Shown: in pieces, positions 1 through 36,049 of the stretch
How the letters are laid out: each line of letters starts with the position of its first letter
Position numbering within the stretch: position 1 is the first letter of the stretch
DNA from: a virus
Lineage: Duplodnaviria; Heunggongvirae; Uroviricota; Caudoviricetes
DNA length: 64,000 bases
Direction: 5' to 3' (one strand)
IMG/VR virus record: IMGVR_UViG_2875713109_000001
Notes under the pieces: model-generated
The model's database searches: none
The model's input: the letters and a program-made list of their open reading frames with translations, nothing else
Told to the model about the DNA's origin: nothing
Translations under genes and position numbers: made by a program

Positions 1-3000
1 TCCCTGTGGTGGCGGCCTCCCTGATTGCTGTTACCCACGATTGAGTCAGCGCGGCGAATGCATGATTCAGATTGGCTTCCCGTTCTGCTGCGATGCGCGC
101 GCTTGCTGCGTCCATTGCCTGCTTGATCTCGGCTTTATTGCTGTAAATGCCAATGGTGCCAAACTGTGCTGTGGTGATCTCATAATCTGACGCCCGGAAC
201 TCATTGGTACCGAAAATGGCATTGGTGACTTCAAGTTCAGAATCCCCGTTACGAGTAGCCCCCTGGCTTGTTTTTTCCGGCATTCTGGCGATCGCATCCG
301 CTATTTTCTCCTGAATTGCTTCAGGGGATAGCGTATCTCCGTATGACGCGATTACATCGCCATAATTGGAGCCAAACAGTTCAACCAGGAATGTTTCTGC
401 CGAACGGATCTGGCGGTTATTCCCTTCCGACATCATACCAAGCACCCATTTTGCAATTGACGACTTCAGCGCGCCGTCACGGCGATCCGGGTAAACCGCA
501 TGCTTCAGTGGGTCCGTATAGGTACCAACAAAATCAATGCTATAGCCTGACTCTGTAGTCTGAACGCCGTACGAGTCAGTGATTTTGATCATGCCGCGCT
601 GCTGGAAACGGTAGAAATCGTCACAGGAAATGATGTCGTTAATCCCGGCGATGGAGACGCCACCACTGATTTTCTGCATAACAGCATCTTCATCGGGAGT
701 TACATCCACCTGTTTATCCAGCGTCTTCACATCCCAGTTACCCGATTTGGTGCCTCTTAAGGTAAAGATGCTCTCCACGTCTGCGCGCTGGCTGTCGAAG
801 TCCAGCGACTTAATGCGAACGATATCACCGGCACAATCGTAGTATTGGCCTACACGCCATGAGCGATCGCCGATAACAAGGAACTCATTCGCATGGTTAA
901 CCAGATCAGGATCAACATCCAGAATGCCTTTATTTATTGCATCCTCCACCAGCGGGCGCAGGCGTTTGATATCCGTCGCGGCCTTCTGAGTACGGTTCAA
1001 TAATTTCTCATAGCGGGAGATGGCCTGAGAGATATTAGCCTTGCGCTGAATGGCGCTTTTCAACGACGCGCGATACTGTGCTAACAACATACGGTCTGTG
1101 TGATGGACACTCCCCCAGCGGGCCTTCCAGTCTGCGTTATCCGCTGCCTTGGCCATTGCCGCCTGTTTGAATTTAGCTACCTCGGCGGTGGTCTTTTCAA
1201 GTTCCGCTTTGCTTCGCTCTAATTCAGCGGTAAGTACCTCCACATCCTCGCCAGCTGCGTGCTGCGCCTTGATGTAGTTCTGAAGGTCGATAGTAGCCTG
1301 TTCTTTCTGGCGAGCGCGTTTCGCAGCTTTCGCCTTATCCATTTGAACCTGCATCATTGCCAGACGTTCGCCGTCATCCTTCGCGGTATACATCTGCATT
1401 TCGATCATGTCATTGGCGTCGGCGTTCTCCATTTCTGACTTATCTGAACGGAGGATATCGGAGATCCAGCCTGCTTTACGCTTCAGCGTCTTCAGTCGGT
1501 ATTCATCGAAAGACCCCTTGCCGCAGTAGTAGTGAACGCGAACGCTTGCACGGTTGGAACCAACTCGGGCACCGCGACCGTTACGCTGTGCGATACTGGC
1601 TGGTGTCCACGGCAACGTCAGGTGGTGGATATCCGTCGTTCCTCGATGCAGGTTGATACCCACCTCTGCCTTTTTGTTGCAGATGATGATCGGAGTCCGG
1701 CCCTCCTGGAAGTCGGCTGCAATCTTTTCCAGACCGCCCAACGACATTTCATTTTGCTGCGCGATATAGGCGTCATACAGAGCCATTTGCTCGTTGTATT
1801 TCGCTATCTGTGCATCTGTTGGTTCATCCGGTAGCTCTTTCGGCGGTTTAACCGCTTTCAGTTTCTTACCGGTTTTACCTGCCTCGGCAACCGTCTGAGC
1901 ATTCAGGATCCCCACCTTTGAAGGTTCAAGGTTTAGAGCATTGCAGATAATGCGCTTGAGCTTCTGGTGCTGCGTTTTTTCATCGGTGAAGATGATTTGC
2001 TTACCTTCCGGGAAAAACTCCTTCAGCGTGGCGATCAGCTTCGCGTATTTGGGCGTAACGGGGTGAGTTACGGTCTGTTCGTCAATGCCAAACCTGGCCA
2101 GGCGCTTATTCACTTCCTGCTCGAACGCTTCCGGAACCTGCAACTGAATAAACTCGCCCTTATCTATCAGGGAGTATTGCGATTGCTGCGTGATTGAATC
2201 ATCACTGTCGTCGTCTTCGCTGGTGGCTTGTTTAGGCAAACTGTCCGCCAGCTGCTGCACCGCATCGGCGTACTCCGGCAGGAAACGATAGGTGATCCGG
2301 CGATAGTACAGGTCCATGTCAGTACATACGCGGTCCATATCCCTGATTATTGAGAAGATCGGACGGGCTTTCTCGTGCTCAATCACGCCGTCTTCATTGA
2401 CCGAGGTCGTTACGCCATTGTTGGCTTTGGCCGCCGCTTCCGCCTGCTGACGCAATTCTTCATACGCCGCCAGTTGTTCTTCAGTAAGTGGTGCATCCTG
2501 CTGGTGTTCGTCCAGCTCCGGGATCTCCACGGTATCCTTAACGTCTTCCGCCGTTTTAAGCGTTACCCAGCGATGGAATATACCGCGCAGCGCATCAAGG
2601 TTTTCAAAGCCCACCAGCGCCATTTTTTCTTCAACTTCACCGCTAATTTTCTGTACCGTTTCCAGCCTGGTCTTGCCGAAGAATTTAACGAAGTCATCAG
2701 GACCGTAGATCCCCATGTTCTGCCAGTATTCCTTCGGCAGAACATGAGAAAGCATGTTGTATGCATCGATCGGGGTGTTAACGACTGGCGTTGCAGTCAG
2801 GAGAACCGGCCCGCGCCCGCCATTCTTTTTCATCAGGTACGCGTTTTTAATTGCCATATCTCGCGCCGATTGCGCCACCGCGCTGGTGGGCAGATAGGCC
2901 AGCTGTGACGCTTCGCGACCATTTTTATAGCTATTGCGGTAGTTGTGGCCTTCGTCAGCAATCACGCTGTCGAAGCCCATATCCTCAAAGTACGGATACT

Positions 3001-6000
3001 TCTCTGCTTTTTCGGTACCGGTATCTGAATACTCCGACAATACCCGGCGACGCGCGGCCTCTTTGCGGTGGGAGTCGGAATCCATTGCGCTGGCTACGCG
3101 CCCGGCGGCAACGAAGTCATAAAGCATATCCTGTGCATGCTCATCTACGGTGTCATCACGTAGCGGAATGCGGGCGTATTGTTCTTTGGTAAACACGACT
3201 GCACGGTAATTTGAGTGCGGGATCGCGTTCATCCGCGCCGTGATAGTGGCTTCATCTGCCAGCTTAAGAGCATCGCGCATAACTGGAGTGCCATCAGTAC
3301 CAAGAACAGGTTTACCGTTCTCATCGAGCACCGGCACCTGGCGAATCTGATCGCCATCCATCAGCACATCAAGACCGACGAACAGGTAGTTACTGAATGC
3401 CTCTTCACTCAGGAATTCTTTTGCTTCGTAATACCAGTTTTCCAGCACTGATTTAGGCACTACATACGCAGTACGGGTGGAGCGACCGTTCTCATAGTTG
3501 AACGCCTCAAGCGCCAGCGCGGTCGTGGTTTTACCCAGCCCGGTGCCGAAGCCCAGGATGCCGCGCCCATCTTCGGACAGTCGGCGCACCTCGCTATTCT
3601 GGTAATCAAATGGCTGGCGCTTACCGCTTAATCCCTTCAACCCAAGCGGATCGCCAGAGTGTTCATACGGGATATTGCTATTGAACACATCGTTATATTT
3701 GGCAACCAGCTCATCGTAGCGATCGTGCGTCTTGATCCACTTATTGAACTGGTCCTCAAGCAGTGCCATCTGCTCGCGGTAGCCGTTCGCCGTCGCGCTA
3801 TCTTTGCCACCGATACGCGCACCATTGAGATACTTTTCCAGCTGTGCCGGGAACCCGGTCGCGTTTTCACCTGATTTACGGTCCCACTCGTAGCGGATCT
3901 CGCCTGTTTCTTTATCCTTGCGCTGGACGACACCGTATCGGTGCCCGACGAACAGACCATCACCACCGTGATAGGTGTCAGAAACCATTTCGTCGCCTTC
4001 CAGCTGCACTGACTGCACATAGCGCAGATCCGGATAGCCGTTTTCCTGCAAAAACTCCAGAATGACGGAGCGGTCGAACCAACGGCTATTGAGCTTAAAG
4101 CGGATATTCTCTGCTGGCGTCTTGATGCGCTTCTCTTCAATCGCTGCCAGCTGATTAAGGACGTTGTTTTTTACTGGACCGTCGGGGAGTGTGGCAAGGA
4201 ATTCCTGTTTTGGAGCCACTATCTCGTTAATGTCGCCGCTGGTGGCGCGGGCAAACGGAACAATCCCGCCATACGGTGAAACCGCAATGCCAGGGGTGCT
4301 GGCCAATAAATTAAGCAACTCGTCATCACTGGCTGGCAGTTCGCCGGTAAACGCAAGGCGGAAATCATCGAGCTGGATTGGATCGCGAGTGAGATCACTG
4401 TAGAGATAACGCAGGGTGTCCTGATAGCTGGTGGAGTCATAACTGGCGCTGGAATCATGCGTAACCAGTTTTCCTGTCAGCTCGTCAGAAATAGTGCCAT
4501 CCAGCTTAATTGCACCACGGAAAGCAAACCAGGCGCGCGCACCGCTCCCCGATAATTTCGCTATCGGACCGCGGCCGGGGTTACCAAAACGGTCAATCTC
4601 TGCCTGCAAACGGGATACCAGAGAAAGGCGCTGCTGTTCGATTTGTTCAGCACTATGCCCGGCGGCCTTCATGTCCTGATATTCAATTAACATCCGGCCA
4701 ATCATCGCCCCGCGATACAAGCGTTCACGGTATTTTTCAGGCTGGCTGTTAATCCAGTCCACCAGCTGCACCATATCGTCGCTGATTGATGTGGTGTACT
4801 TATCGCGGACATTTGCCATCTGGGTAAATGTCATACCGAGACGGCCTTCTGTTGTAGTCAGGTTACGCTGAAGAGCCTCCCAGCTATCCGCGCCATAACT
4901 GGCAACATCAATCTTCAGCTCCTTCCCGGCATCAGCTTCAATCCAGCGACCACCAGCATATTTTTGCCATACGCCATTAATCAGGCGCATTTCCCCTTCA
5001 TCAACAACATCTGCGGTCGGTGACGGTTCAGCCATATCGAGCAAAGACCAGTCGATACGACTTTCGAAACGATGAATCAGCTTCGCTTTAAGAGCCTGGT
5101 TATCAATCTGCCCGTCGGCACGAACCTCAATACGCCCCTGGAATCCCTTCTCCTGAGTGCCATGAACAAACCGGCGGCCGTCCTTTTCAAACCACTTGCC
5201 AGAAATAAACGTTGGCCAAAGCACATTTGCCGATTCAAGAGTGCCTTCATCCACCAGGGGGATTTTCTCAGCCATCTCCGCCGGATGTTTGCGCATCAGC
5301 ACCACGTCAACGACCGTACTGGTCCCGTTTGCGTCAAAAGTACCGGTAGGCAAGCGGTGGGCACCAAGAAATTCAGCTTTCCGTGATAGGCGCAGGCGTA
5401 ACCGCTTCATGTTTGAACCTGAAACAATGGACGGCGGCACAATCACGCACATGAATCCGCCTGGCTTTATCTTGTCCAGCATGCGGAGCATGAAGTAAGA
5501 ACCCATGTCCGTTTCTTCTGCGTAAGGCTTATCGATGTTGCGTGTGTTATCACGACCACCGAACGGAACGTTACCCACAACATGGTCGAATGAATCGTTA
5601 GGCGTGCTTACAGCCAGTTGTTCGAACGGGGAAATCTGTACGCTGTCTTCCGGATGTAACAGCTGGTTTATACGACCGGAAACACTGCTGATCTCAGTCG
5701 CGGTCATCACCGTGCCAACCGGTTTTGTCTCATTAAAAACGCCGGTGCCCGCCGATGGTTCCAGAGTGTTACCTACGTCCGCGCCGTAGAGCTTCATGAT
5801 CTCCCAGACACCTTCAGCTATCGGCTTTGGTGTGTAATATTCGGAGACGGACCCGCCAATGCCGCCTTCACCGGTGTACCCAGCCAGGATCTGGCGCTGT
5901 TCATCTGTCAGTGTCGCGCCGTCCACCAGCGAATTAAGCAAATCTATCGCCTTCTGATTCGCCTCACGGCGCAGTCGGTCATAGCTTTTGCCTTCCACCT

Positions 6001-6109
6001 TTTCCACGCCGTATTTAATCGGCGCTCGGTGAGATGTTATTGCCCTAATGTATTTCAATATTTCGCTGACACTTGAACAGCGAAACACCCCCATAGATAG
6101 CTTGTTCAT
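1..6109 (-). CDS. darB: DarB-like capsid-delivered anti-restriction protein, N6-adenine methyltransferase + SF2 helicase fusion; partial, 3' end beyond left edge
   Basis: ATG at 6109 (rc ATGAACAAG). Three motifs are in one frame with it: DHVVGNVPFGG (MTase motif IV-like, rc ~5571-5603), GFGTGLGKT Walker A (rc ~3527-3553), IADEGHNY DEGH box (rc ~2945-2968). Absent from ORF track because no stop lies inside the window; frame continuity below 2945 not checked codon by codon. Confidence 0.8.
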   Translation of the reverse strand, partial: MNKLSMGVFRCSSVSEILKYIRAITSHRAPIKYGVEKVEGKSYDRLRREANQKAIDLLNSLVDGATLTDEQRQILAGYTGEGGIGGSVSEYYTPKPIAEGVWEIMKLYGADVGNTLEPSAGTGVFNETKPVGTVMTATEISSVSGRINQLLHPEDSVQISPFEQLAVSTPNDSFDHVVGNVPFGGRDNTRNIDKPYAEETDMGSYFMLRMLDKIKPGGFMCVIVPPSIVSGSNMKRLRLRLSRKAEFLGAHRLPTGTFDANGTSTVVDVVLMRKHPAEMAEKIPLVDEGTLESANVLWPTFISGKWFEKDGRRFVHGTQEKGFQGRIEVRADGQIDNQALKAKLIHRFESRIDWSLLDMAEPSPTADVVDEGEMRLINGVWQKYAGGRWIEADAGKELKIDVASYGADSWEALQRNLTTTEGRLGMTFTQMANVRDKYTTSISDDMVQLVDWINSQPEKYRERLYRGAMIGRMLIEYQDMKAAGHSAEQIEQQRLSLVSRLQAEIDRFGNPGRGPIAKLSGSGARAWFAFRGAIKLDGTISDELTGKLVTHDSSASYDSTSYQDTLRYLYSDLTRDPIQLDDFRLAFTGELPASDDELLNLLASTPGIAVSPYGGIVPFARATSGDINEIVAPKQEFLATLPDGPVKNNVLNQLAAIEEKRIKTPAENIRFKLNSRWFDRSVILEFLQENGYPDLRYVQSVQLEGDEMVSDTYHGGDGLFVGHRYGVVQRKDKETGEIRYEWDRKSGENATGFPAQLEKYLNGARIGGKDSATANGYREQMALLEDQFNKWIKTHDRYDELVAKYNDVFNSNIPYEHSGDPLGLKGLSGKRQPFDYQNSEVRRLSEDGRGILGFGTGLGKTTTALALEAFNYENGRSTRTAYVVPKSVLENWYYEAKEFLSEEAFSNYLFVGLDVLMDGDQIRQVPVLDENGKPVLGTDGTPVMRDALKLADEATITARMNAIPHSNYRAVVFTKEQYARIPLRDDTVDEHAQDMLYDFVAAGRVASAMDSDSHRKEAARRRVLSEYSDTGTEKAEKYPYFEDMGFDSVIADEGHNYRNSYKNGREASQLAYLPTSAVAQSARDMAIKNAYLMKKNGGRGPVLLTATPVVNTPIDAYNMLSHVLPKEYWQNMGIYGPDDFVKFFGKTRLETVQKISGEVEEKMALVGFENLDALRGIFHRWVTLKTAEDVKDTVEIPELDEHQQDAPLTEEQLAAYEELRQQAEAAAKANNGVTTSVNEDGVIEHEKARPIFSIIRDMDRVCTDMDLYYRRITYRFLPEYADAVQQLADSLPKQATSEDDDSDDSITQQSQYSLIDKGEFIQLQVPEAFEQEVNKRLARFGIDEQTVTHPVTPKYAKLIATLKEFFPEGKQIIFTDEKTQHQKLKRIICNALNLEPSKVGILNAQTVAEAGKTGKKLKAVKPPKELPDEPTDAQIAKYNEQMALYDAYIAQQNEMSLGGLEKIAADFQEGRTPIIICNKKAEVGINLHRGTTDIHHLTLPWTPASIAQRNGRGARVGSNRASVRVHYYCGKGSFDEYRLKTLKRKAGWISDILRSDKSEMENADANDMIEMQMYTAKDDGERLAMMQVQMDKAKAAKRARQKEQATIDLQNYIKAQHAAGEDVEVLTAELERSKAELEKTTAEVAKFKQAAMAKAADNADWKARWGSVHHTDRMLLAQYRASLKSAIQRKANISQAISRYEKLLNRTQKAATDIKRLRPLVEDAINKGILDVDPDLVNHANEFLVIGDRSWRVGQYYDCAGDIVRIKSLDFDSQRADVESIFTLRGTKSGNWDVKTLDKQVDVTPDEDAVMQKISGGVSIAGINDIISCDDFYRFQQRGMIKITDSYGVQTTESGYSIDFVGTYTDPLKHAVYPDRRDGALKSSIAKWVLGMMSEGNNRQIRSAETFLVELFGSNYGDVIASYGDTLSPEAIQEKIADAIARMPEKTSQGATRNGDSELEVTNAIFGTNEFRASDYEITTAQFGTIGIYSNKAEIKQAMDAASARIAAEREANLNHAFAALTQSWVTAIREAATTG

Positions 6110-6120
6110 TGGTAATCCTT

Positions 6121-6142
6121 AACAAGTGACTAGTGTTAAATT
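6121..6142 (+). promoter_or_regulatory. late-promoter-like motif AACAAGTGACT-N5-TAAATT upstream of prt
   Basis: Motif recurs upstream of lyz, gene 23-like, R and lydA (see findings). Confidence 0.3.
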
Positions 6143-6176
6143 TCCGTTCAAACACGATGCGAATTATTCTAATTAA

Positions 6177-8907
<2,731 letters not shown>

Positions 8908-10413: not shown

Positions 10414-10615
10414 AGTTTATGAGTAAAAAACGACTGAAAGAAAAGCGGTGGTCAAGACGCCGACAAAAGCACGAACTCGCAAAAAAACGCCAAAGTTGGC
10501 AATGGCACGCGCTTTTCACGAAAAGAACACCCCGAGATATTGCTTTCGCTGGTGGGAAAACATTCCTGACCCACCTGAAGGCGCAATACATCAGTTTTTA
10601 AGCAGAGAAAAGACT

Positions 10616-11410
10616 ATGACAGCACAAAATACTAAAACAATTCAATACCGCCTGCGTAATGGCCAGAGTGTCGAAGTGACCATCAATAATGATGGTGTAC
10701 CTGGCGAAAAGGTTTCGATCTCTGATCTGGCTATCGAAAAAACCATCATGTGCCACCTTGGCTTTACTGAAGAAGTGAGCAAAAAGCATGGTGTAGCTAT
10801 CTGGCGCACAATGGATACTGGCATGCGCAGATTCATTACTGCTCGTACCCCTGGTATGACCATGATGGACCTCATACAGATTGCGCCGCTGTTTGAGTGT
10901 GAACCTTTGGATGTATTCAGCAATCCAGCTATCTGCCAGCAGTTATATGGTGAGATGAAACTCGCGGTTACCCCCATTGTGCTGCATGAAGGATCGCTTG
11001 CTGGCGTATGGAAAGTAGAGCGAATTTCAAGCTACATGCCATTCCACATCCATGTCAACGGCGTAATCGCAGGTGAAAATCAACCTGTTTCAGTTACAAA
11101 GTCAGACCTCAATCGCGCAATTCTTGAAGCAAGTTGTCGAGTTATCGGCCTGGGCAAACAGTCTTATGTTTCCTTCCCGGCTGGTCCTGAAGGCCCGGCA
11201 GAAATTCTGATTATGGATGCTGATCTGCTCTGGCAAATACAGTTTCTGATTGGCAAAAGCATCATCCGCGCTGAAGAACTCGATCAGTACATTACCTGCA
11301 CGATGACGGATGAAGTCAAAAGTGTGGCTATAGCCAATGCCCGGAACCTGTGTCGTGCTGCATTAACAGAACCGCAAGAAAACATTCCAGAAGAAACAGA
11401 AAGTGACTAA
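10616..11410 (+). CDS. hypothetical protein (264 aa from ATG 10616; frame opens at 10448)
   Basis: Long ORF between ssb and the kinase cassette; no motif recognised; start uncertain. Confidence 0.45.
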   Translation: MTAQNTKTIQYRLRNGQSVEVTINNDGVPGEKVSISDLAIEKTIMCHLGFTEEVSKKHGVAIWRTMDTGMRRFITARTPGMTMMDLIQIAPLFECEPLDVFSNPAICQQLYGEMKLAVTPIVLHEGSLAGVWKVERISSYMPFHIHVNGVIAGENQPVSVTKSDLNRAILEASCRVIGLGKQSYVSFPAGPEGPAEILIMDADLLWQIQFLIGKSIIRAEELDQYITCTMTDEVKSVAIANARNLCRAALTEPQENIPEETESD

Positions 11411-11416
11411 TAAAAA

Positions 11417-11434
11417 CCCCGTCAGTTGGCGGGG
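11417..11434. terminator. hairpin CCCCG-n8-CGGGG downstream of the 10616-11410 ORF
   Basis: 5-bp GC stem flanked by an A-run; terminator function uncertain. Confidence 0.3.
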
Positions 11435-11607
11435 AACTCCACGTCAAATGGCCAATTGTTATGTCAGCTAGCAGTTAAAGCGCCTAGTCATCATCTTTTA
11501 AAGAAGTCTTTTTAACTTACCTAAATTAGTGACACCTCCCGTTTTGCTTGCTATTGTACGCATTCATGAATCTATTCATTAATCTATTCACAATAGTAAT
11601 TAAAACT

Positions 11608-12912
11608 ATGGCTATACATGCAACAACAATCCGTAATTTGCTCAATCAAGGTCCTATGACACCAAGACAATTGGTTGAAAGACTAAGTGTTAGCCAACCA
11701 ACGATATCTAGAGCATTAAGAGATCTTGGTGATGAAATCGTTAGGATCGGAAATGGAAGATCTATTCAATATGCTTTACGAGACTCTTTTAGAGGATTCG
11801 AATCAGTCCCCATTTATCGTATAACTGAAGAGGGGTGTATTTGCGTTCTTGGTACTCTCATTCCGGTGAGGCCAGAAGGCTATGTTATGGTTGAGGAAGG
11901 GAAAAATAACAGGCATAGCGATGGGTTACCTTGGTGGTTATTTGATATGCGTCCACAAGGCTTCCTTGGAAGAGCATATGCATCAGCATATGCTCTTGAA
12001 CTTAACCTTCCCTCAAATCCAGAGCAATGGTCAGATACTGACGTGATCAAAGCCTTACTTAAGCATGGGCATGATGTTGTTGGTAATTTGTTAATTGGAG
12101 AGCAAGCACGCACGCATTTTTTAGAGATGCAGCCTCCTGTTCCTGTTAATCGTGAAAGTGAATATCCTGTATTAGCTTTAGCTGCTGGTGAAGGTGATGT
12201 GCCCGGTTCATCTGCTGGAGGTGAACAACCCAAATTTTGTACTTTCACAGAGCGTGGACATGTATTAGTGAAATTCTCTGCGCCTAACGACACCCCTATA
12301 AGTGAGCGTTGGAGAGATCTCTTGTTTGCTGAACATCTCGCATTAAAAGTTCTGGGGGTAGAAACAGAAGTTTTTGATTATAACGGTCAGAGATTCTTGG
12401 AAATTCCCCGATTTGATCGTGTTGGTCAACTAGGTCGGGTAGGTGTATTCTCACTTCGTGCACTTGATGCAGAATTTGTTGGGAATGCAAGAGCAACATG
12501 GCCCTTGCTGGTTAAAGAGTTGGTAAAAAATAAGTGCGTCCATCCTGATGCGATTATTATAGCAACAAGGCTATGGTCTTTTGGTTTGCTAATAGGCAAT
12601 ACCGATATGCATAATGGTAACCTATCGTTTATTAGTAGCCACGGACGCCCATATCATATTGCTCCAGCCTATGACATGTTACCTATGGGTTTTGCTCCAC
12701 GCTCTGGGGGAGCAATATCTAATGAGCTTAGAAAAACAGCACTACCAGACTTTGTAAGTCGAAAAATATGGGATGAATCTCTTGAATTGGCTGAAAAATT
12801 TTATGCATTGGCCTGTGAGTCCGACAAATTCTCAGCTAACTTTACTCCATGTTTAGAAGCGCTACGCATCCACCTAGATGATTGTAAGATACGCATAGCC
12901 CGCCTGGCATAA
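11608..12912 (+). CDS. HipA-like Ser/Thr kinase with N-terminal HTH domain (E. coli YjjJ-like)
   Basis: HTH TPRQLVERLSVSQPTISRALRDLGD; HipA P-loop-like SSAGGEQPKF; catalytic-loop-like IGNTDMHNGNLSF (D-x-H-x-x-N). AT-rich with frequent AGA/ATA/CTA/TTA codons. Start taken at ATG 11608; track frame opens at TTG 11548. Confidence 0.7.
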   Translation: MAIHATTIRNLLNQGPMTPRQLVERLSVSQPTISRALRDLGDEIVRIGNGRSIQYALRDSFRGFESVPIYRITEEGCICVLGTLIPVRPEGYVMVEEGKNNRHSDGLPWWLFDMRPQGFLGRAYASAYALELNLPSNPEQWSDTDVIKALLKHGHDVVGNLLIGEQARTHFLEMQPPVPVNRESEYPVLALAAGEGDVPGSSAGGEQPKFCTFTERGHVLVKFSAPNDTPISERWRDLLFAEHLALKVLGVETEVFDYNGQRFLEIPRFDRVGQLGRVGVFSLRALDAEFVGNARATWPLLVKELVKNKCVHPDAIIIATRLWSFGLLIGNTDMHNGNLSFISSHGRPYHIAPAYDMLPMGFAPRSGGAISNELRKTALPDFVSRKIWDESLELAEKFYALACESDKFSANFTPCLEALRIHLDDCKIRIARLA

Positions 12913-12917
12913 ACAAC

Positions 12918-34630: not shown

Positions 34631-34686
34631 TTAACAGATTCTACGAGTTGTCATTTGTGACAGTATGCTCGCAATCGTAGTGATTA

Positions 34687-35226
34687 CTACCACCAACTGC
34701 TAGCTTTCTTCTCTCTAGCTTTTCCTTCGCTTTGCAGTAAATCTTTACTTCCTGTAGAAATATTTCTATTTGCATCAGCCTCAGACTGAATTACATCTGT
34801 CTTAGCTGCTCTCTCCTTCAACTCCTGCTCTATAAAATCGTTTTCTCGCTGGACACGAGCCGCTTTTGCTTGCAGTTCGAGTTTCATGCTTTCGAGTTGC
34901 AGCTTGCGAAGCTCATCCTCATAAGCTTGATCTCGCTTCTTGTCATTTGCTAGCTCGGCTTCTCGTTTCGCTCTACGTTCATTTTCTGCAGCAACACGCT
35001 GTTTTTCGCGTGCAGCAGCGGCAGATGCTGCTTTTTCTCTTCTAATACGTTCAGCTTGTGCTTGTTGGCGAATAAGTTCTTTTCTGGCATCCTCAGCTTG
35101 CTGCTCTTTAGCTCGCCCTTCATTTTCCGCTTGAGCAATAGCAGCAATTTGACTTTGCAACGAGTTAGCCAAGGCAGTGCCTACACTAAACGTAGAAAAG
35201 ATTAGAAATAAAATAATTTTATTCAT
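34687..35226 (-). CDS. secreted charged coiled-coil protein (signal peptide MNKIILFLIFSTFSVGTALA)
   Basis: Cleavable-type signal peptide then E/R/K/Q/A-rich repeats; AT-rich DNA. Confidence 0.55.
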   Translation of the reverse strand: MNKIILFLIFSTFSVGTALANSLQSQIAAIAQAENEGRAKEQQAEDARKELIRQQAQAERIRREKAASAAAAREKQRVAAENERRAKREAELANDKKRDQAYEDELRKLQLESMKLELQAKAARVQRENDFIEQELKERAAKTDVIQSEADANRNISTGSKDLLQSEGKAREKKASSWW

Positions 35227-35229
35227 AAA

Positions 35230-35751
35230 TTATTTCTTTTCTGGACAAGTAGCATTTGGCTGAATTCGAGTTTCATTATCTTTAGTTGAAATAAGCACAG
35301 CAAGCCCCGTTGTAAACTGGCATGCTTTACCAACTTGAGTTGAAGTGAACACCTTAGTTCCTTCTTTATAAGTCAGTGAAACACCTTCAACAATTGTTTT
35401 ATCACTAACCAAAGAACCAGCCGCTGCACCAAGAGCCGCACCACCAGTACCGCCAGCTACAGCACCCAGTGTCGATGTGCCTTTAACATTATAACCGGCA
35501 ACGCCCCCAGCAACAGCTCCCAGTACCGCACCAAATGTCTGTGCCGCTTCTTTATTAGCTTTATTATCAACTTTCACTTTAGCTGGAAGCACAGAGATAA
35601 TATTGACTGTCTTTGTTTCCTGCTTCGAATTCAATTGAGCGGTATCATAAACATCGGCAGCATAATCAGCACCGCTAGATTGACACCCAGAAAGAAGAAT
35701 TGCAGATACAACAAGAGCGCATAAAGTATACTTTTTAGACATAAGAATCAT
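35230..35751 (-). CDS. lipoprotein with glycine-zipper segment (SlyB-like)
   Basis: Lipobox LLSGC; GAVLGAVAGGVAGY...GAVAGGTGGAALGAAAGS; AT-rich. Confidence 0.6.
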   Translation of the reverse strand: MILMSKKYTLCALVVSAILLSGCQSSGADYAADVYDTAQLNSKQETKTVNIISVLPAKVKVDNKANKEAAQTFGAVLGAVAGGVAGYNVKGTSTLGAVAGGTGGAALGAAAGSLVSDKTIVEGVSLTYKEGTKVFTSTQVGKACQFTTGLAVLISTKDNETRIQPNATCPEKK

Positions 35752-36032
35752 CCCAGAAAAACAAAAACCGGCGAGAAGTTACCACGAGAACGGAAAGTAA
35801 ACAAGAATACTCCCATTGACTTATATCAAATAATCAACTTTTTATAAGCTATCCCTAACTTATTGTGTATAGCTGAAAAGTCAGAGATAAGTTCACCATC
35901 TGCATTATTTCTTAAGTTAATAGTTTATTGCTAACTTAATTTATGTATCGACTATTGATATCCATCTTAAAGTAACAATATCCCTCTGCATTATTTTTCA
36001 TCACAAATAATACATCTATTGCACTACGCTCA

Positions 36033-36049
36033 CCTGCTCTAATAAATTT
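36033..36049 (+). promoter_or_regulatory. C1 operator-like site (Op51-like) CCTGCTCTAATAAATTT
   Basis: 15/17 match to remembered C1 consensus; just upstream of the immI promoter. Confidence 0.5.

What the first reader, a model, noticed from the sequence alone, without database searches (positions are those of the whole stretch)
1..6109. DarB-like methyltransferase-helicase gene unlisted in the ORF track because it runs off the window
The first 6.1 kb has no long ORF in the track, yet the minus strand reads as one frame from ATG 6109 with MTase and helicase motifs in frame. This is about 2036 codons of a gene I recall as ~2255 codons in P1. The short ORFs listed on both strands here are out of frame with it.
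Basis: partly seen in the sequence, partly recalled or inferred. Interest (0 to 1): 0.35.

Follow-up and report, generated by a model that had tools for sequence, protein, structure and literature searches.

The report
Phage P1 darB gene, cut by window
The first 6.1 kb of the window holds the first 90% of darB, the well-known giant anti-restriction gene of phage P1 and its plasmid-prophage relatives; the ORF list missed it only because the gene runs off the window edge.

Summary
The minus strand is open for exactly 2,036 codons from ATG 6109 to base 2. An in-frame TAA lies four codons upstream and an AAGGA ribosome-binding site 6 nt upstream. The chance of such an open frame is about 1e-45.

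The product matches P1 DarB (2,255 aa) at 2,015 of 2,036 residues with no gaps. It differs by 4 residues from the intact 2,255-aa DarB of E. coli IncY plasmid NZ_AP027786.1.

- **Domains:** Pfam finds an N6-adenine methyltransferase (aa 90-290) and an SNF2-type helicase (aa 833-911 and 1455-1517), all above the curated cut-offs.
- **Conservation:** the catalytic motifs and the 30-residue capsid-targeting signal are identical to P1. dN/dS against P1 is 0.08.
- **Context:** the portal gene prt is the divergent neighbour, and hdf-darA-ddrA-ddrB lie at 13.2-19.1 kb.
- **Missing part:** codons 2037-2255 (659 nt) and ulx lie beyond the left edge, so completeness can only be inferred. Twelve relatives are intact (11 of 2,255 aa, one of 2,251); phage SJ46 has a nonsense codon.

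This is an already known gene and an artefact of the ORF track. Interest is low. How DarB works biochemically is still undefined in the literature, and this window does not help settle it.

The parts
1..6109 (-). darB coding sequence: codons 1-2036 of an expected 2,255, plus the first base of codon 2037. It is truncated by the left edge of the window.
   Evidence: No stop in 2,036 codons. 99.0% amino-acid identity to P1 DarB, ungapped. PHROG 1685 E = 0.
6116..6121 (-). In-frame TAA (6121-6119) that bounds the ORF upstream, overlapping the AAGGA Shine-Dalgarno sequence (6120-6116), which lies 6 nt before ATG 6109.
   Evidence: Sequence read directly.
6166..6196 (-). Predicted sigma-70 promoter PdarB (-35 TTGTCT at 6196-6191, -10 TAGAAT at 6171-6166). 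It is placed by homology to the P1 annotation and lies inside the 5' end of the divergent prt gene.
   Evidence: P1 annotation of PdarB carried over by alignment, with identical sequence in the window. The consensus scan finds only a weak overlapping site. This is a prediction, not a shown promoter.
6020..6109 (-). Codons 1-30, the capsid-targeting sequence of DarB (MNKLSMGVFRCSSVSEILKYIRAITSHRAP).
   Evidence: Identical to P1. In P1 these 30 residues are sufficient to direct a reporter protein into the capsid (PMC9024508).
5852..5872 (-). GEGGIGG (aa 80-86), which fits the GxGU motif of the N-terminal LPD36 domain described for DarB-like polyvalent proteins.
   Evidence: Motif read in the translation and domain description in PMC5512222. 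No Pfam model matched this stretch.
5240..5842 (-). N6-adenine DNA methyltransferase domain (aa 90-290): TP motif 93-94, SAM motif LEPSAGTGVF 116-125, catalytic motif GNVPFG 179-184.
   Evidence: Pfam N6_Mtase 32.9 bits (cut-off 20.4) and Eco57I 32.0 bits (cut-off 25.3). Weak PDB matches to the EcoKI M subunit. Motif positions; conserved in phages JK004 and D6.
3620..5239 (-). Linker of about 540 residues (aa 291-830) with no recognisable domain.
   Evidence: No Pfam hit above noise and no PDB sequence match. 40.5% identical to D6. dN/dS 0.056 against P1.
1559..3613 (-). SWI2/SNF2-type SF2 ATPase/translocase (aa 833-1517): motif I GTGLGKT 855-861, motif II DEGH 1052-1055, motif III TAT 1105-1107, motif VI QRNGRGARVG 1508-1517, with a long insert between the two lobes.
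   Evidence: Pfam SNF2-rel_dom 42.8 bits (cut-off 24.9), ResIII 25.4 (22.5), Helicase_C 27.9 (23.5). Motifs located and invariant in P1, JK004 and D6. dN/dS 0.028.
2..1429 (-). Start of the C-terminal region (aa 1561-2036 of 1561-2255). It has no recognisable domain and is the fastest-evolving part of the protein.
   Evidence: No Pfam hit above noise and no credible PDB hit. 25.9% identity to D6 against 55-57% in the enzyme domains. dN/dS 0.25 against 0.03-0.06 elsewhere.
6186..7895 (+). prt (portal protein, TTG start), the divergently transcribed neighbour that fixes the P1-type synteny.
   Evidence: 99.5% identical to P1 Prt; ORF listed; P1 annotation.
13245..19136 (-). The rest of the Dar system in the same window: ddrB (13245-16229), ddrA (16248-16607), darA (16607-18523) and hdf (18528-19136). 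In P1 these are needed to load DarB into the capsid.
   Evidence: tblastn with the P1 proteins gives 95.8-99.0% identity over full length. Roles are from PMC9024508 and PMC12810830.

Best explanation
Window 1-6109 (minus strand) is the 5' 90% of darB of a P1-like (Punavirus, IncY-type) phage-plasmid of Enterobacteriaceae. The window boundary cuts it; in the real molecule it most likely continues for another 659 nt to a TAA and is followed by ulx and lxc.

Shown here:
- The frame is intact.
- It is near-identical to P1 DarB.
- The capsid-targeting signal, the methyltransferase motifs and the SNF2 helicase motifs are all intact.
- The gene is under purifying selection.
- The partner genes are present in the same window.

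From published work on P1: the 251-kDa product is made during lytic growth. It is loaded last into the procapsid through its N-terminal 30 residues, after Hdf/DarA, DdrA and DdrB, at about 40 copies per head. It is ejected with the DNA, and it protects that DNA, and only that DNA (in cis), from the type I enzymes EcoKI and EcoBI.

Inferred, not shown anywhere: once in the cell, DarB stays on the incoming duplex. Its SNF2 motor translocates along it, and the adenine methyltransferase modifies or occupies the DNA so that type I complexes cannot complete translocation and cleavage. I put about 0.45 on a mechanism that needs both the motor and methylation, about 0.3 on a motor or roadblock mechanism without protective methylation, and the rest on something else.
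For: - **Frame:** open for 2,036 codons with a bounded start.
- **Similarity to known phages:** 98.3% DNA identity to P1 darB and 97.8-98.5% to the other Punavirus-type records that cover at least 80% of the query (19 records in all).
- **Protein identity:** 2,015 of 2,036 residues identical to P1 DarB, ungapped. Only 4 residues differ from the intact 2,255-aa DarB of NZ_AP027786.1.
- **Domains:** all above the Pfam cut-offs; PHROG 1685 matches end to end.
- **Motifs:** every catalytic motif is conserved even in the D6 homologue at 45% identity.
- **Selection:** dN/dS is 0.08 overall and 0.03-0.04 in the enzyme domains.
- **Synteny:** prt is adjacent, and ddrB, ddrA, darA and hdf are in the window.
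- **Relatives:** all ten contigs that carry the identical Prt have an uninterrupted darB (nine of 2,255 aa, one of 2,251) followed by ulx- and lxc-sized genes.
- **Targets present:** the window's DNA carries 8 EcoKI and 9 EcoBI sites, so this element does need protection.
- **Literature:** capsid-targeting signal and copy number (PMC9024508); packaging order (PMC12810830); action in cis (PMC12707154; PMC5512222); proposal that methyltransferase and SNF2 motor work together (PMC5512222).
Against: - The last 219 codons are outside the window, so an inactivating change there cannot be excluded. Phage SJ46, a close relative, has a nonsense codon at position 1499.
- No exact source record was found. 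The nearest relatives differ by 7 nt, so the leftward extension is by proxy only.
- The biochemical mechanism is explicitly described as undefined or unclear in 2024-2025 papers (PMC11109961; PMC12707154).
- The catalytic motif reads NVPF rather than the canonical NPP(Y/F), so methyltransferase activity is not assured.
- One methyltransferase without an obvious target-recognition module would have to protect the unrelated EcoKI and EcoBI sites.
- The promoter is only a prediction.
Confidence: 0.92

Rival explanations
1. The gene is darB but a dead copy. In the real molecule the part beyond the window's left edge (codons 2037-2255) carries a stop, a frameshift or an insertion, so no full-length DarB is made.
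For: The missing 659 nt cannot be inspected. Disrupted darB alleles do exist: SJ46 has a nonsense codon at 1499 and is annotated as two genes. Only 444 of 785 matching plasmid records cover at least 80% of the query, although many of the remainder are divergent alleles rather than broken ones.
Against: The 2,036 codons present are intact, with dN/dS 0.08. All ten contigs with the identical Prt, plus P1 and NZ_AP027786.1, have an uninterrupted darB of 2,251-2,255 aa. The partner dar genes in the window are full length.
Confidence: 0.05
2. DarB protects without protective methylation. The SNF2 motor, or simply the bulky DNA-bound protein, acts as a roadblock or remover of type I complexes on the DNA it was packaged with. 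The methyltransferase-like domain would serve only to bind DNA or S-adenosylmethionine.
For: The effect is strictly in cis and extends to systems with unrelated recognition sites (EcoKI, EcoBI and, for the Dar system as a whole, BREX; PMC12707154). That is awkward for a sequence-specific methyltransferase. Motif IV deviates from the canonical NPP(Y/F) (NVPF). The review literature favours 'physical shielding'.
Against: The SAM motif, the TP motif and NVPF are invariant down to 45% identity. The methyltransferase region has dN/dS 0.037, as expected for a working active site. The methyltransferase-SNF2 pairing recurs across polyvalent proteins (PMC5512222).
Confidence: 0.3
3. The anti-restriction effect attributed to darB comes from its DNA rather than its protein. 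Its many Chi sites trigger RecBCD/RecA recombination and ClpXP-dependent restriction alleviation of EcoKI.
For: Cloned darB, or only its first 350 codons, still alleviates EcoKI restriction when carrying a premature stop; this depends on a Chi site and on an EcoKI site in the vector (PMC11109961). The window's darB segment holds 9 Chi sites, and full P1 darB holds 11.
Against: That effect was seen with multicopy plasmids. The authors present it as a caution about assays, not as the mechanism in the phage. It acts in trans, whereas Dar acts only in cis on DNA from Dar+ virions. DarB is a virion protein at about 40 copies. A 6.8-kb frame kept at dN/dS 0.08 shows selection on the protein.
Confidence: 0.04

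Closest known systems
DarB of Escherichia phage P1 (YP_006479.1; gene darB, NC_005856.1 10469-17236)
   Same: Same gene. 98.3% DNA identity; 2,015 of 2,036 residues identical with no gaps; same start codon, ribosome-binding site and predicted promoter. Same neighbours (prt divergent; dar operon downstream in the genome). Identical capsid-targeting signal and catalytic motifs.
   Different: 21 substitutions, 12 of them in the C-terminal region (aa 1597-2018). The last 219 codons are not in the window. One extra T lies in the darB-prt intergenic region, next to the -10 of the late promoter LPpro.
DarB of E. coli IncY phage-plasmid p2017-03-3CC_3 (NZ_AP027786.1, WP_089531146.1)
   Same: Nearest relative found. 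It differs by 7 nt and 4 residues over the 6,109 nt, has an intact 2,255-aa gene and the same flanking genes.
   Different: All 7 differences fall in window positions 50-379. V2018F (position 58) and a synonymous change at 379 were not seen in any of the 12 relatives compared.
DarB-like protein of Escherichia phage D6 (YP_009914692.1, 2,278 aa)
   Same: Same architecture and the same invariant methyltransferase and helicase motifs, including NVPF. A ulx-like gene lies downstream.
   Different: Only 45% identical overall and 26% in the C-terminal region. The upstream neighbour differs.
Methyltransferase-SWI2/SNF2 'dyad' of polyvalent proteins (Iyer et al. 2017, PMC5512222)
   Same: LPD36-like N-terminus, gamma-class adenine methyltransferase with a TP motif, and an SNF2-type ATPase with helical inserts. 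DarB is the named archetype.
   Different: Many polyvalent proteins add further effector domains. None was detectable here in the linker or the C-terminal region.
Other phage anti-restriction proteins (T7 Ocr, T4 IPI*)
   Same: They counter host restriction at DNA entry. IPI*, like DarB, is packaged in the head through a capsid-targeting sequence and injected.
   Different: These are small, non-enzymatic inhibitors. Ocr is a DNA mimic that acts in trans on the enzyme, whereas DarB is a 251-kDa two-enzyme protein that acts only in cis.

Membership tests
P1 DarB (Punavirus defence-against-restriction protein B; PHROG 1685) | Collinear, near-full-length sequence similarity to P1 DarB | tested here: met
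   2,015 of 2,036 residues identical, ungapped. PHROG 1685 E = 0, covering profile positions 1-2052 of 2278.
P1 DarB (Punavirus defence-against-restriction protein B; PHROG 1685) | N-terminal capsid-targeting sequence (first 30 residues) | tested here: met
   Residues 1-30 are identical to P1. Their function in P1 is shown in PMC9024508.
P1 DarB (Punavirus defence-against-restriction protein B; PHROG 1685) | Adenine methyltransferase followed by an SNF2-type helicase in one polypeptide | tested here: met
   Pfam N6_Mtase aa 90-290, SNF2-rel_dom/ResIII aa 833-911 and Helicase_C aa 1455-1517, all above cut-off.
P1 DarB (Punavirus defence-against-restriction protein B; PHROG 1685) | LPD36 domain at the N-terminus, before the methyltransferase | tested here: inconclusive
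   GEGGIGG at aa 80-86 fits the published GxGU motif, but no profile matched aa 1-90.
P1 DarB (Punavirus defence-against-restriction protein B; PHROG 1685) | P1-type genomic setting: divergent from prt, and hdf-darA-ddrA-ddrB in the same genome | tested here: met
   prt at 6186-7895; ddrB, ddrA, darA and hdf at 13245-19136, 96-99% identical to P1.
P1 DarB (Punavirus defence-against-restriction protein B; PHROG 1685) | ulx immediately downstream of darB | not testable with these tools
   It lies beyond the left edge and there is no tblastn hit in the window. It is present in P1, NZ_AP027786.1 and all ten related contigs.
P1 DarB (Punavirus defence-against-restriction protein B; PHROG 1685) | Complete reading frame of about 2,255 codons | not testable with these tools
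   Codons 2037-2255 are outside the window. No 100% identical record was found from which to read them.
P1 DarB (Punavirus defence-against-restriction protein B; PHROG 1685) | Packaged in the virion and protects co-injected DNA from EcoKI and EcoBI in cis | not testable with these tools
   This needs phage genetics. It is known for P1 only.
Gamma-class (EcoKI/TaqI-like) N6-adenine DNA methyltransferases | SAM-binding motif I (ExxxGxG) and the N-terminal TP motif | tested here: met
   LEPSAGTGVF at aa 116-125 and TP at 93-94. Weak PDB matches to type I M subunits, E = 1.6e-4 to 5.5e-4.
Gamma-class (EcoKI/TaqI-like) N6-adenine DNA methyltransferases | Catalytic motif IV, NPP(Y/F) | tested here: inconclusive
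   It reads N-V-P-F (aa 180-183), with the first proline replaced. The same variant is invariant in P1, JK004 and D6. Activity has not been tested.
SWI2/SNF2 clade of SF2 ATPases | Motifs I (GxGKT), II (DExH), III (TAT/SAT) and VI (QxxGRxxR), with matches to the SNF2 profile | tested here: met
   GTGLGKT 855-861, DEGH 1052-1055, TAT 1105-1107, QRNGRGARVG 1508-1517. SNF2-rel_dom scores 42.8 bits against a cut-off of 24.9.
Host defence helicases (DISARM DrmD, DpdE, Dnd restriction) | Score at or above the NCBIfam equivalog cut-off | tested here: not met
   The best score is DrmD at 45 bits against a cut-off of 610, and the hits cover only the shared helicase C-lobe.

The most novel reading that the evidence does not exclude
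The C-terminal third of DarB (aa 1561-2255) has no recognisable domain and evolves about 4-9 times faster than the other regions of the protein (dN/dS 0.25 against 0.03-0.06; 26% identity to D6 against 55-57% in the enzyme domains). It could be a swappable module that sets which host defence systems are blocked. This window's allele carries a small mosaic patch there (7 differences from its nearest relatives, all in window 50-379, 4 of them amino-acid changes, including V2018F, which none of the 12 relatives has). On this reading the patch would be an adaptive variant rather than neutral drift.
Probability: 0.08. Interest if true: 0.35.

Novelty: already known. Interest (0 to 1): 0.08.

Why it matters
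Its main value is for quality control. A 6.1-kb stretch that looked free of ORFs is really a well-known 6.8-kb gene that the ORF lister hid because it drops ORFs that run off the window. The stretch should therefore not be treated as non-coding or unusual. It also identifies the window as a P1-like phage-plasmid carrying a full Dar anti-restriction set. The interesting open question, how a virion-delivered methyltransferase-motor fusion protects DNA in cis, concerns DarB in general. This copy adds only supporting observations: the motifs are conserved, including the non-canonical NVPF, and the C-terminal region evolves fast.

Tried and rejected
- **Exact source record:** I looked for one so as to read the missing 3' end. 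Megablast against phages, plasmids and complete E. coli genomes gave at best 99.9% identity (7 nt differences). Looking up contigs that encode the identical Prt protein gave ten loci, none identical over darB (7-49 mismatches). The leftward extension is therefore by proxy only.
- **Unannotated linker (aa 291-830) and C-terminal region (aa 1561-2036):** Pfam at E up to 1 and PDB sequence searches gave only sub-threshold hits I take as noise: Lipase_chap, Par3_HAL_N_term, and 4iaj at E = 0.019.
- **N-terminal 90 residues (LPD36):** the Pfam scan found nothing.
- **NCBIfam:** matches to DISARM DrmD, DpdE and Dnd restriction helicases are far below their cut-offs and reflect only the shared helicase fold, so I rejected them as family assignments.
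- **Literature gap:** Piya et al. 2017 (Mol Microbiol 105:399), the main genetic paper on the Dar system, is not held in the library. Its findings are cited only through papers that quote it.
- **Not run:** structure prediction and large homologue searches. The verdict (a known gene) did not depend on them, and they are costly shared resources.


Full report
**Observation.** Translating window 1-6109 on the minus strand in the frame of ATG 6109 gives 2,036 codons and no stop. The other five frames of the same stretch contain 40-165 stops, with at most 184 open codons. At the window's base composition the chance of 2,036 stop-free codons is about 1e-45. The ORF is bounded upstream. An in-frame TAA at 6121-6119 lies four codons before the ATG, and AAGGA (6120-6116) sits 6 nt upstream as a ribosome-binding site. 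The ORF lister returns nothing longer than 177 aa inside 1-6109, and it states that ORFs running off an end are not listed. The four listed minus-strand ORFs are all shifted by one base relative to the 6109 frame.

**Identity.**
- Megablast of window 1-6400 finds 19 P1-type phage records that cover at least 80% of the query, at 97.8-98.7% identity. They include P1 itself (NC_005856.1 11128-17526, 98.3%), P7, SJ46 and RCS47, and the match is annotated darB plus prt.
- In P1, darB occupies 10469-17236 on the minus strand, which is 2,255 codons.
- Without any gap, 2,015 of the window's 2,036 residues equal P1 DarB. Of the 108 nucleotide differences, 84 are in codons whose amino acid is unchanged. 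Nei-Gojobori dN/dS is 0.08.
- The one-base length difference from P1 lies in the darB-prt intergenic region, not in the gene.
- Among plasmids and complete E. coli genomes the sequence is common: 785 plasmid records, and 756 of 5,426 E. coli genomes, almost always on plasmids.
- The nearest relative is IncY plasmid NZ_AP027786.1. It has 7 nucleotide and 4 amino-acid differences, and an intact 2,255-codon darB followed by ulx- and lxc-sized genes.

**What is missing.** Window position 1 falls at the first base of codon 2037. The missing part is 659 nt, that is 219 codons plus the stop. No identical source record was found. Ten contigs that encode the identical portal protein differ from the window by 7-49 nt within darB. 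All ten have an uninterrupted darB (nine of 2,255 aa, one of 2,251). Intactness of this copy is therefore a strong inference, not an observation. The caution is real, because the SJ46 copy has a nonsense codon at position 1499 and is annotated as two genes.

**Anatomy.**
- Pfam places an N6-adenine methyltransferase at aa 90-290, an SNF2/ResIII N-lobe at 833-911 and Helicase_C at 1455-1517, all above the curated cut-offs. PHROG 1685 matches end to end.
- Motifs located:
  - methyltransferase: TP 93-94, LEPSAGTGVF 116-125, GNVPFG 179-184;
  - helicase: GTGLGKT 855-861, DEGH 1052-1055, TAT 1105-1107, QRNGRGARVG 1508-1517.
- All of these motifs are invariant in P1, in Cronobacter phage JK004 (86% identity) and in phage D6 (45% identity). 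That includes the non-canonical NVPF in place of NPP(Y/F).
- Residues 1-30 are identical to the P1 capsid-targeting sequence.
- Two large stretches, aa 291-830 and aa 1561 onward, match no Pfam family or solved structure.
- The C-terminal stretch is the least conserved: 26% identity to D6, and dN/dS 0.25 against 0.03-0.06 elsewhere.

**Context.** The portal gene prt (6186-7895, TTG start) is transcribed divergently, as in P1. The predicted sigma-70 promoter PdarB of the P1 annotation is conserved at 6196-6166, but it remains only a prediction. The other Dar genes are in the window: ddrB, ddrA, darA and hdf at 13245-19136, 96-99% identical to P1. The window DNA carries 8 EcoKI and 9 EcoBI target sites. 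The darB segment itself has none and three respectively, and it holds 9 Chi sites.

**How it works.**
- *Published for P1.* DarB is a 251-kDa head protein present at about 40 copies. It is loaded last in an ordered pathway that starts with Hdf and DarA, and its first 30 residues suffice for capsid targeting (PMC9024508; PMC12810830). Dar proteins are ejected with the DNA. Loss of darB makes P1 sensitive to EcoK and EcoB, and protection acts only in cis on DNA from Dar+ particles (PMC11109961; PMC12707154; PMC5512222).
- *Unresolved.* The biochemical step is described as not defined or unclear.
- *Proposed.* Iyer et al. suggest that the SNF2 motor translocates on the injected duplex while the adenine methyltransferase modifies it.
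- *My reading.* The invariance of both sets of catalytic motifs at 45% identity, and the very low dN/dS in both enzyme domains, fit selection on both activities. I favour the motor-plus-methylation model at about 0.45, a roadblock or displacement model without protective methylation at about 0.3, and other mechanisms for the rest.
- *Chi-site rival.* Cloned darB DNA causes Chi-dependent restriction alleviation. That is a plasmid artefact acting in trans and does not explain a cis-acting virion protein.

**Comparison and novelty.** This is the same gene as P1 darB, in the same genomic setting, in a member of a very common group of E. coli and Salmonella phage-plasmids. Nothing about the copy departs from the known kind beyond ordinary allelic variation. 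The finding is a correct call about an artefact of the ORF track, and its interest is low.

Noticed in passing
window 11385-12945 (ORF 11548-12912, + strand): Where P1 has IS1 and isaB (P1 22506-24245), the window has a gene of about 434-454 aa for an HTH (ArsR/MarR-like) domain fused to a HipA_C kinase domain. This looks like a HipA-type toxin or regulator. The same gene sits at this position in most related contigs.
   Followed up: partly
window 20499-24054 and 34659-36034: Two further stretches have no megablast match to the corresponding P1 regions. The first corresponds to cin plus the invertible tail-fibre C segment, and the second to the sim superimmunity region. The window was not compared with P1 beyond P1 position 50000 (window about 37900).
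   Followed up: partly
window 6137-6143 (+ strand): The only length difference from P1 in 1-6400 is one extra T directly after the -10 hexamer (TAAATT) of the late promoter LPpro, which drives prt. NZ_AP027786.1 has the same extra T.
   Followed up: partly
window 50-379: All 7 nucleotide differences from the nearest relatives (NZ_AP027786.1, L005) fall in this 330-nt patch at the 3' end of the visible darB, and 4 of them change the amino acid. Positions 58 (V2018F) and 379 (synonymous) differ from all 12 relatives compared. In L007 only 58 and 379 differ within this patch, which suggests recombination mosaicism.
   Followed up: partly
L002 (Salmonella phage SJ46, KU760857.1), darB codon 1499: The SJ46 darB has a nonsense codon between helicase motifs V and VI (HHLT*PW; the window has L at this position). 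The record annotates it as two genes, 'DNA methylase' and 'putative DNA adenine methyltransferase'.
   Followed up: yes
L001, L002, L003, L005-L014: the region left of lxc (outside the window): The slot just beyond darB-ulx-lxc holds different cargo in each relative: the EcoP1I-type type III R-M system (P1, L007), a YaaC-family gene pair (L003, L005, L006, L010), a SIR2-domain gene (L008, L009, L014), a RelA/SpoT gene (SJ46), DUF2971 (L011, L012), and an ORF6N/ANT gene (L013). It looks like a hotspot for exchange of defence or accessory genes.
   Followed up: no
window 1-6109: The visible darB segment holds 9 Chi sites (4 on the + strand, 5 on the - strand) out of 26 in the whole 64-kb window. 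It has no EcoKI site and three EcoBI sites. Full P1 darB has 11 Chi sites, matching the count given in PMC11109961.
   Followed up: yes
L015 (Cronobacter phage JK004, MZ188976.1), gene_107: The annotated DarB homologue (2,224 aa, 86% identical) lacks the first 30 residues, which form the capsid-targeting signal in P1. I did not check whether this is a mis-called start or a real difference.
   Followed up: no
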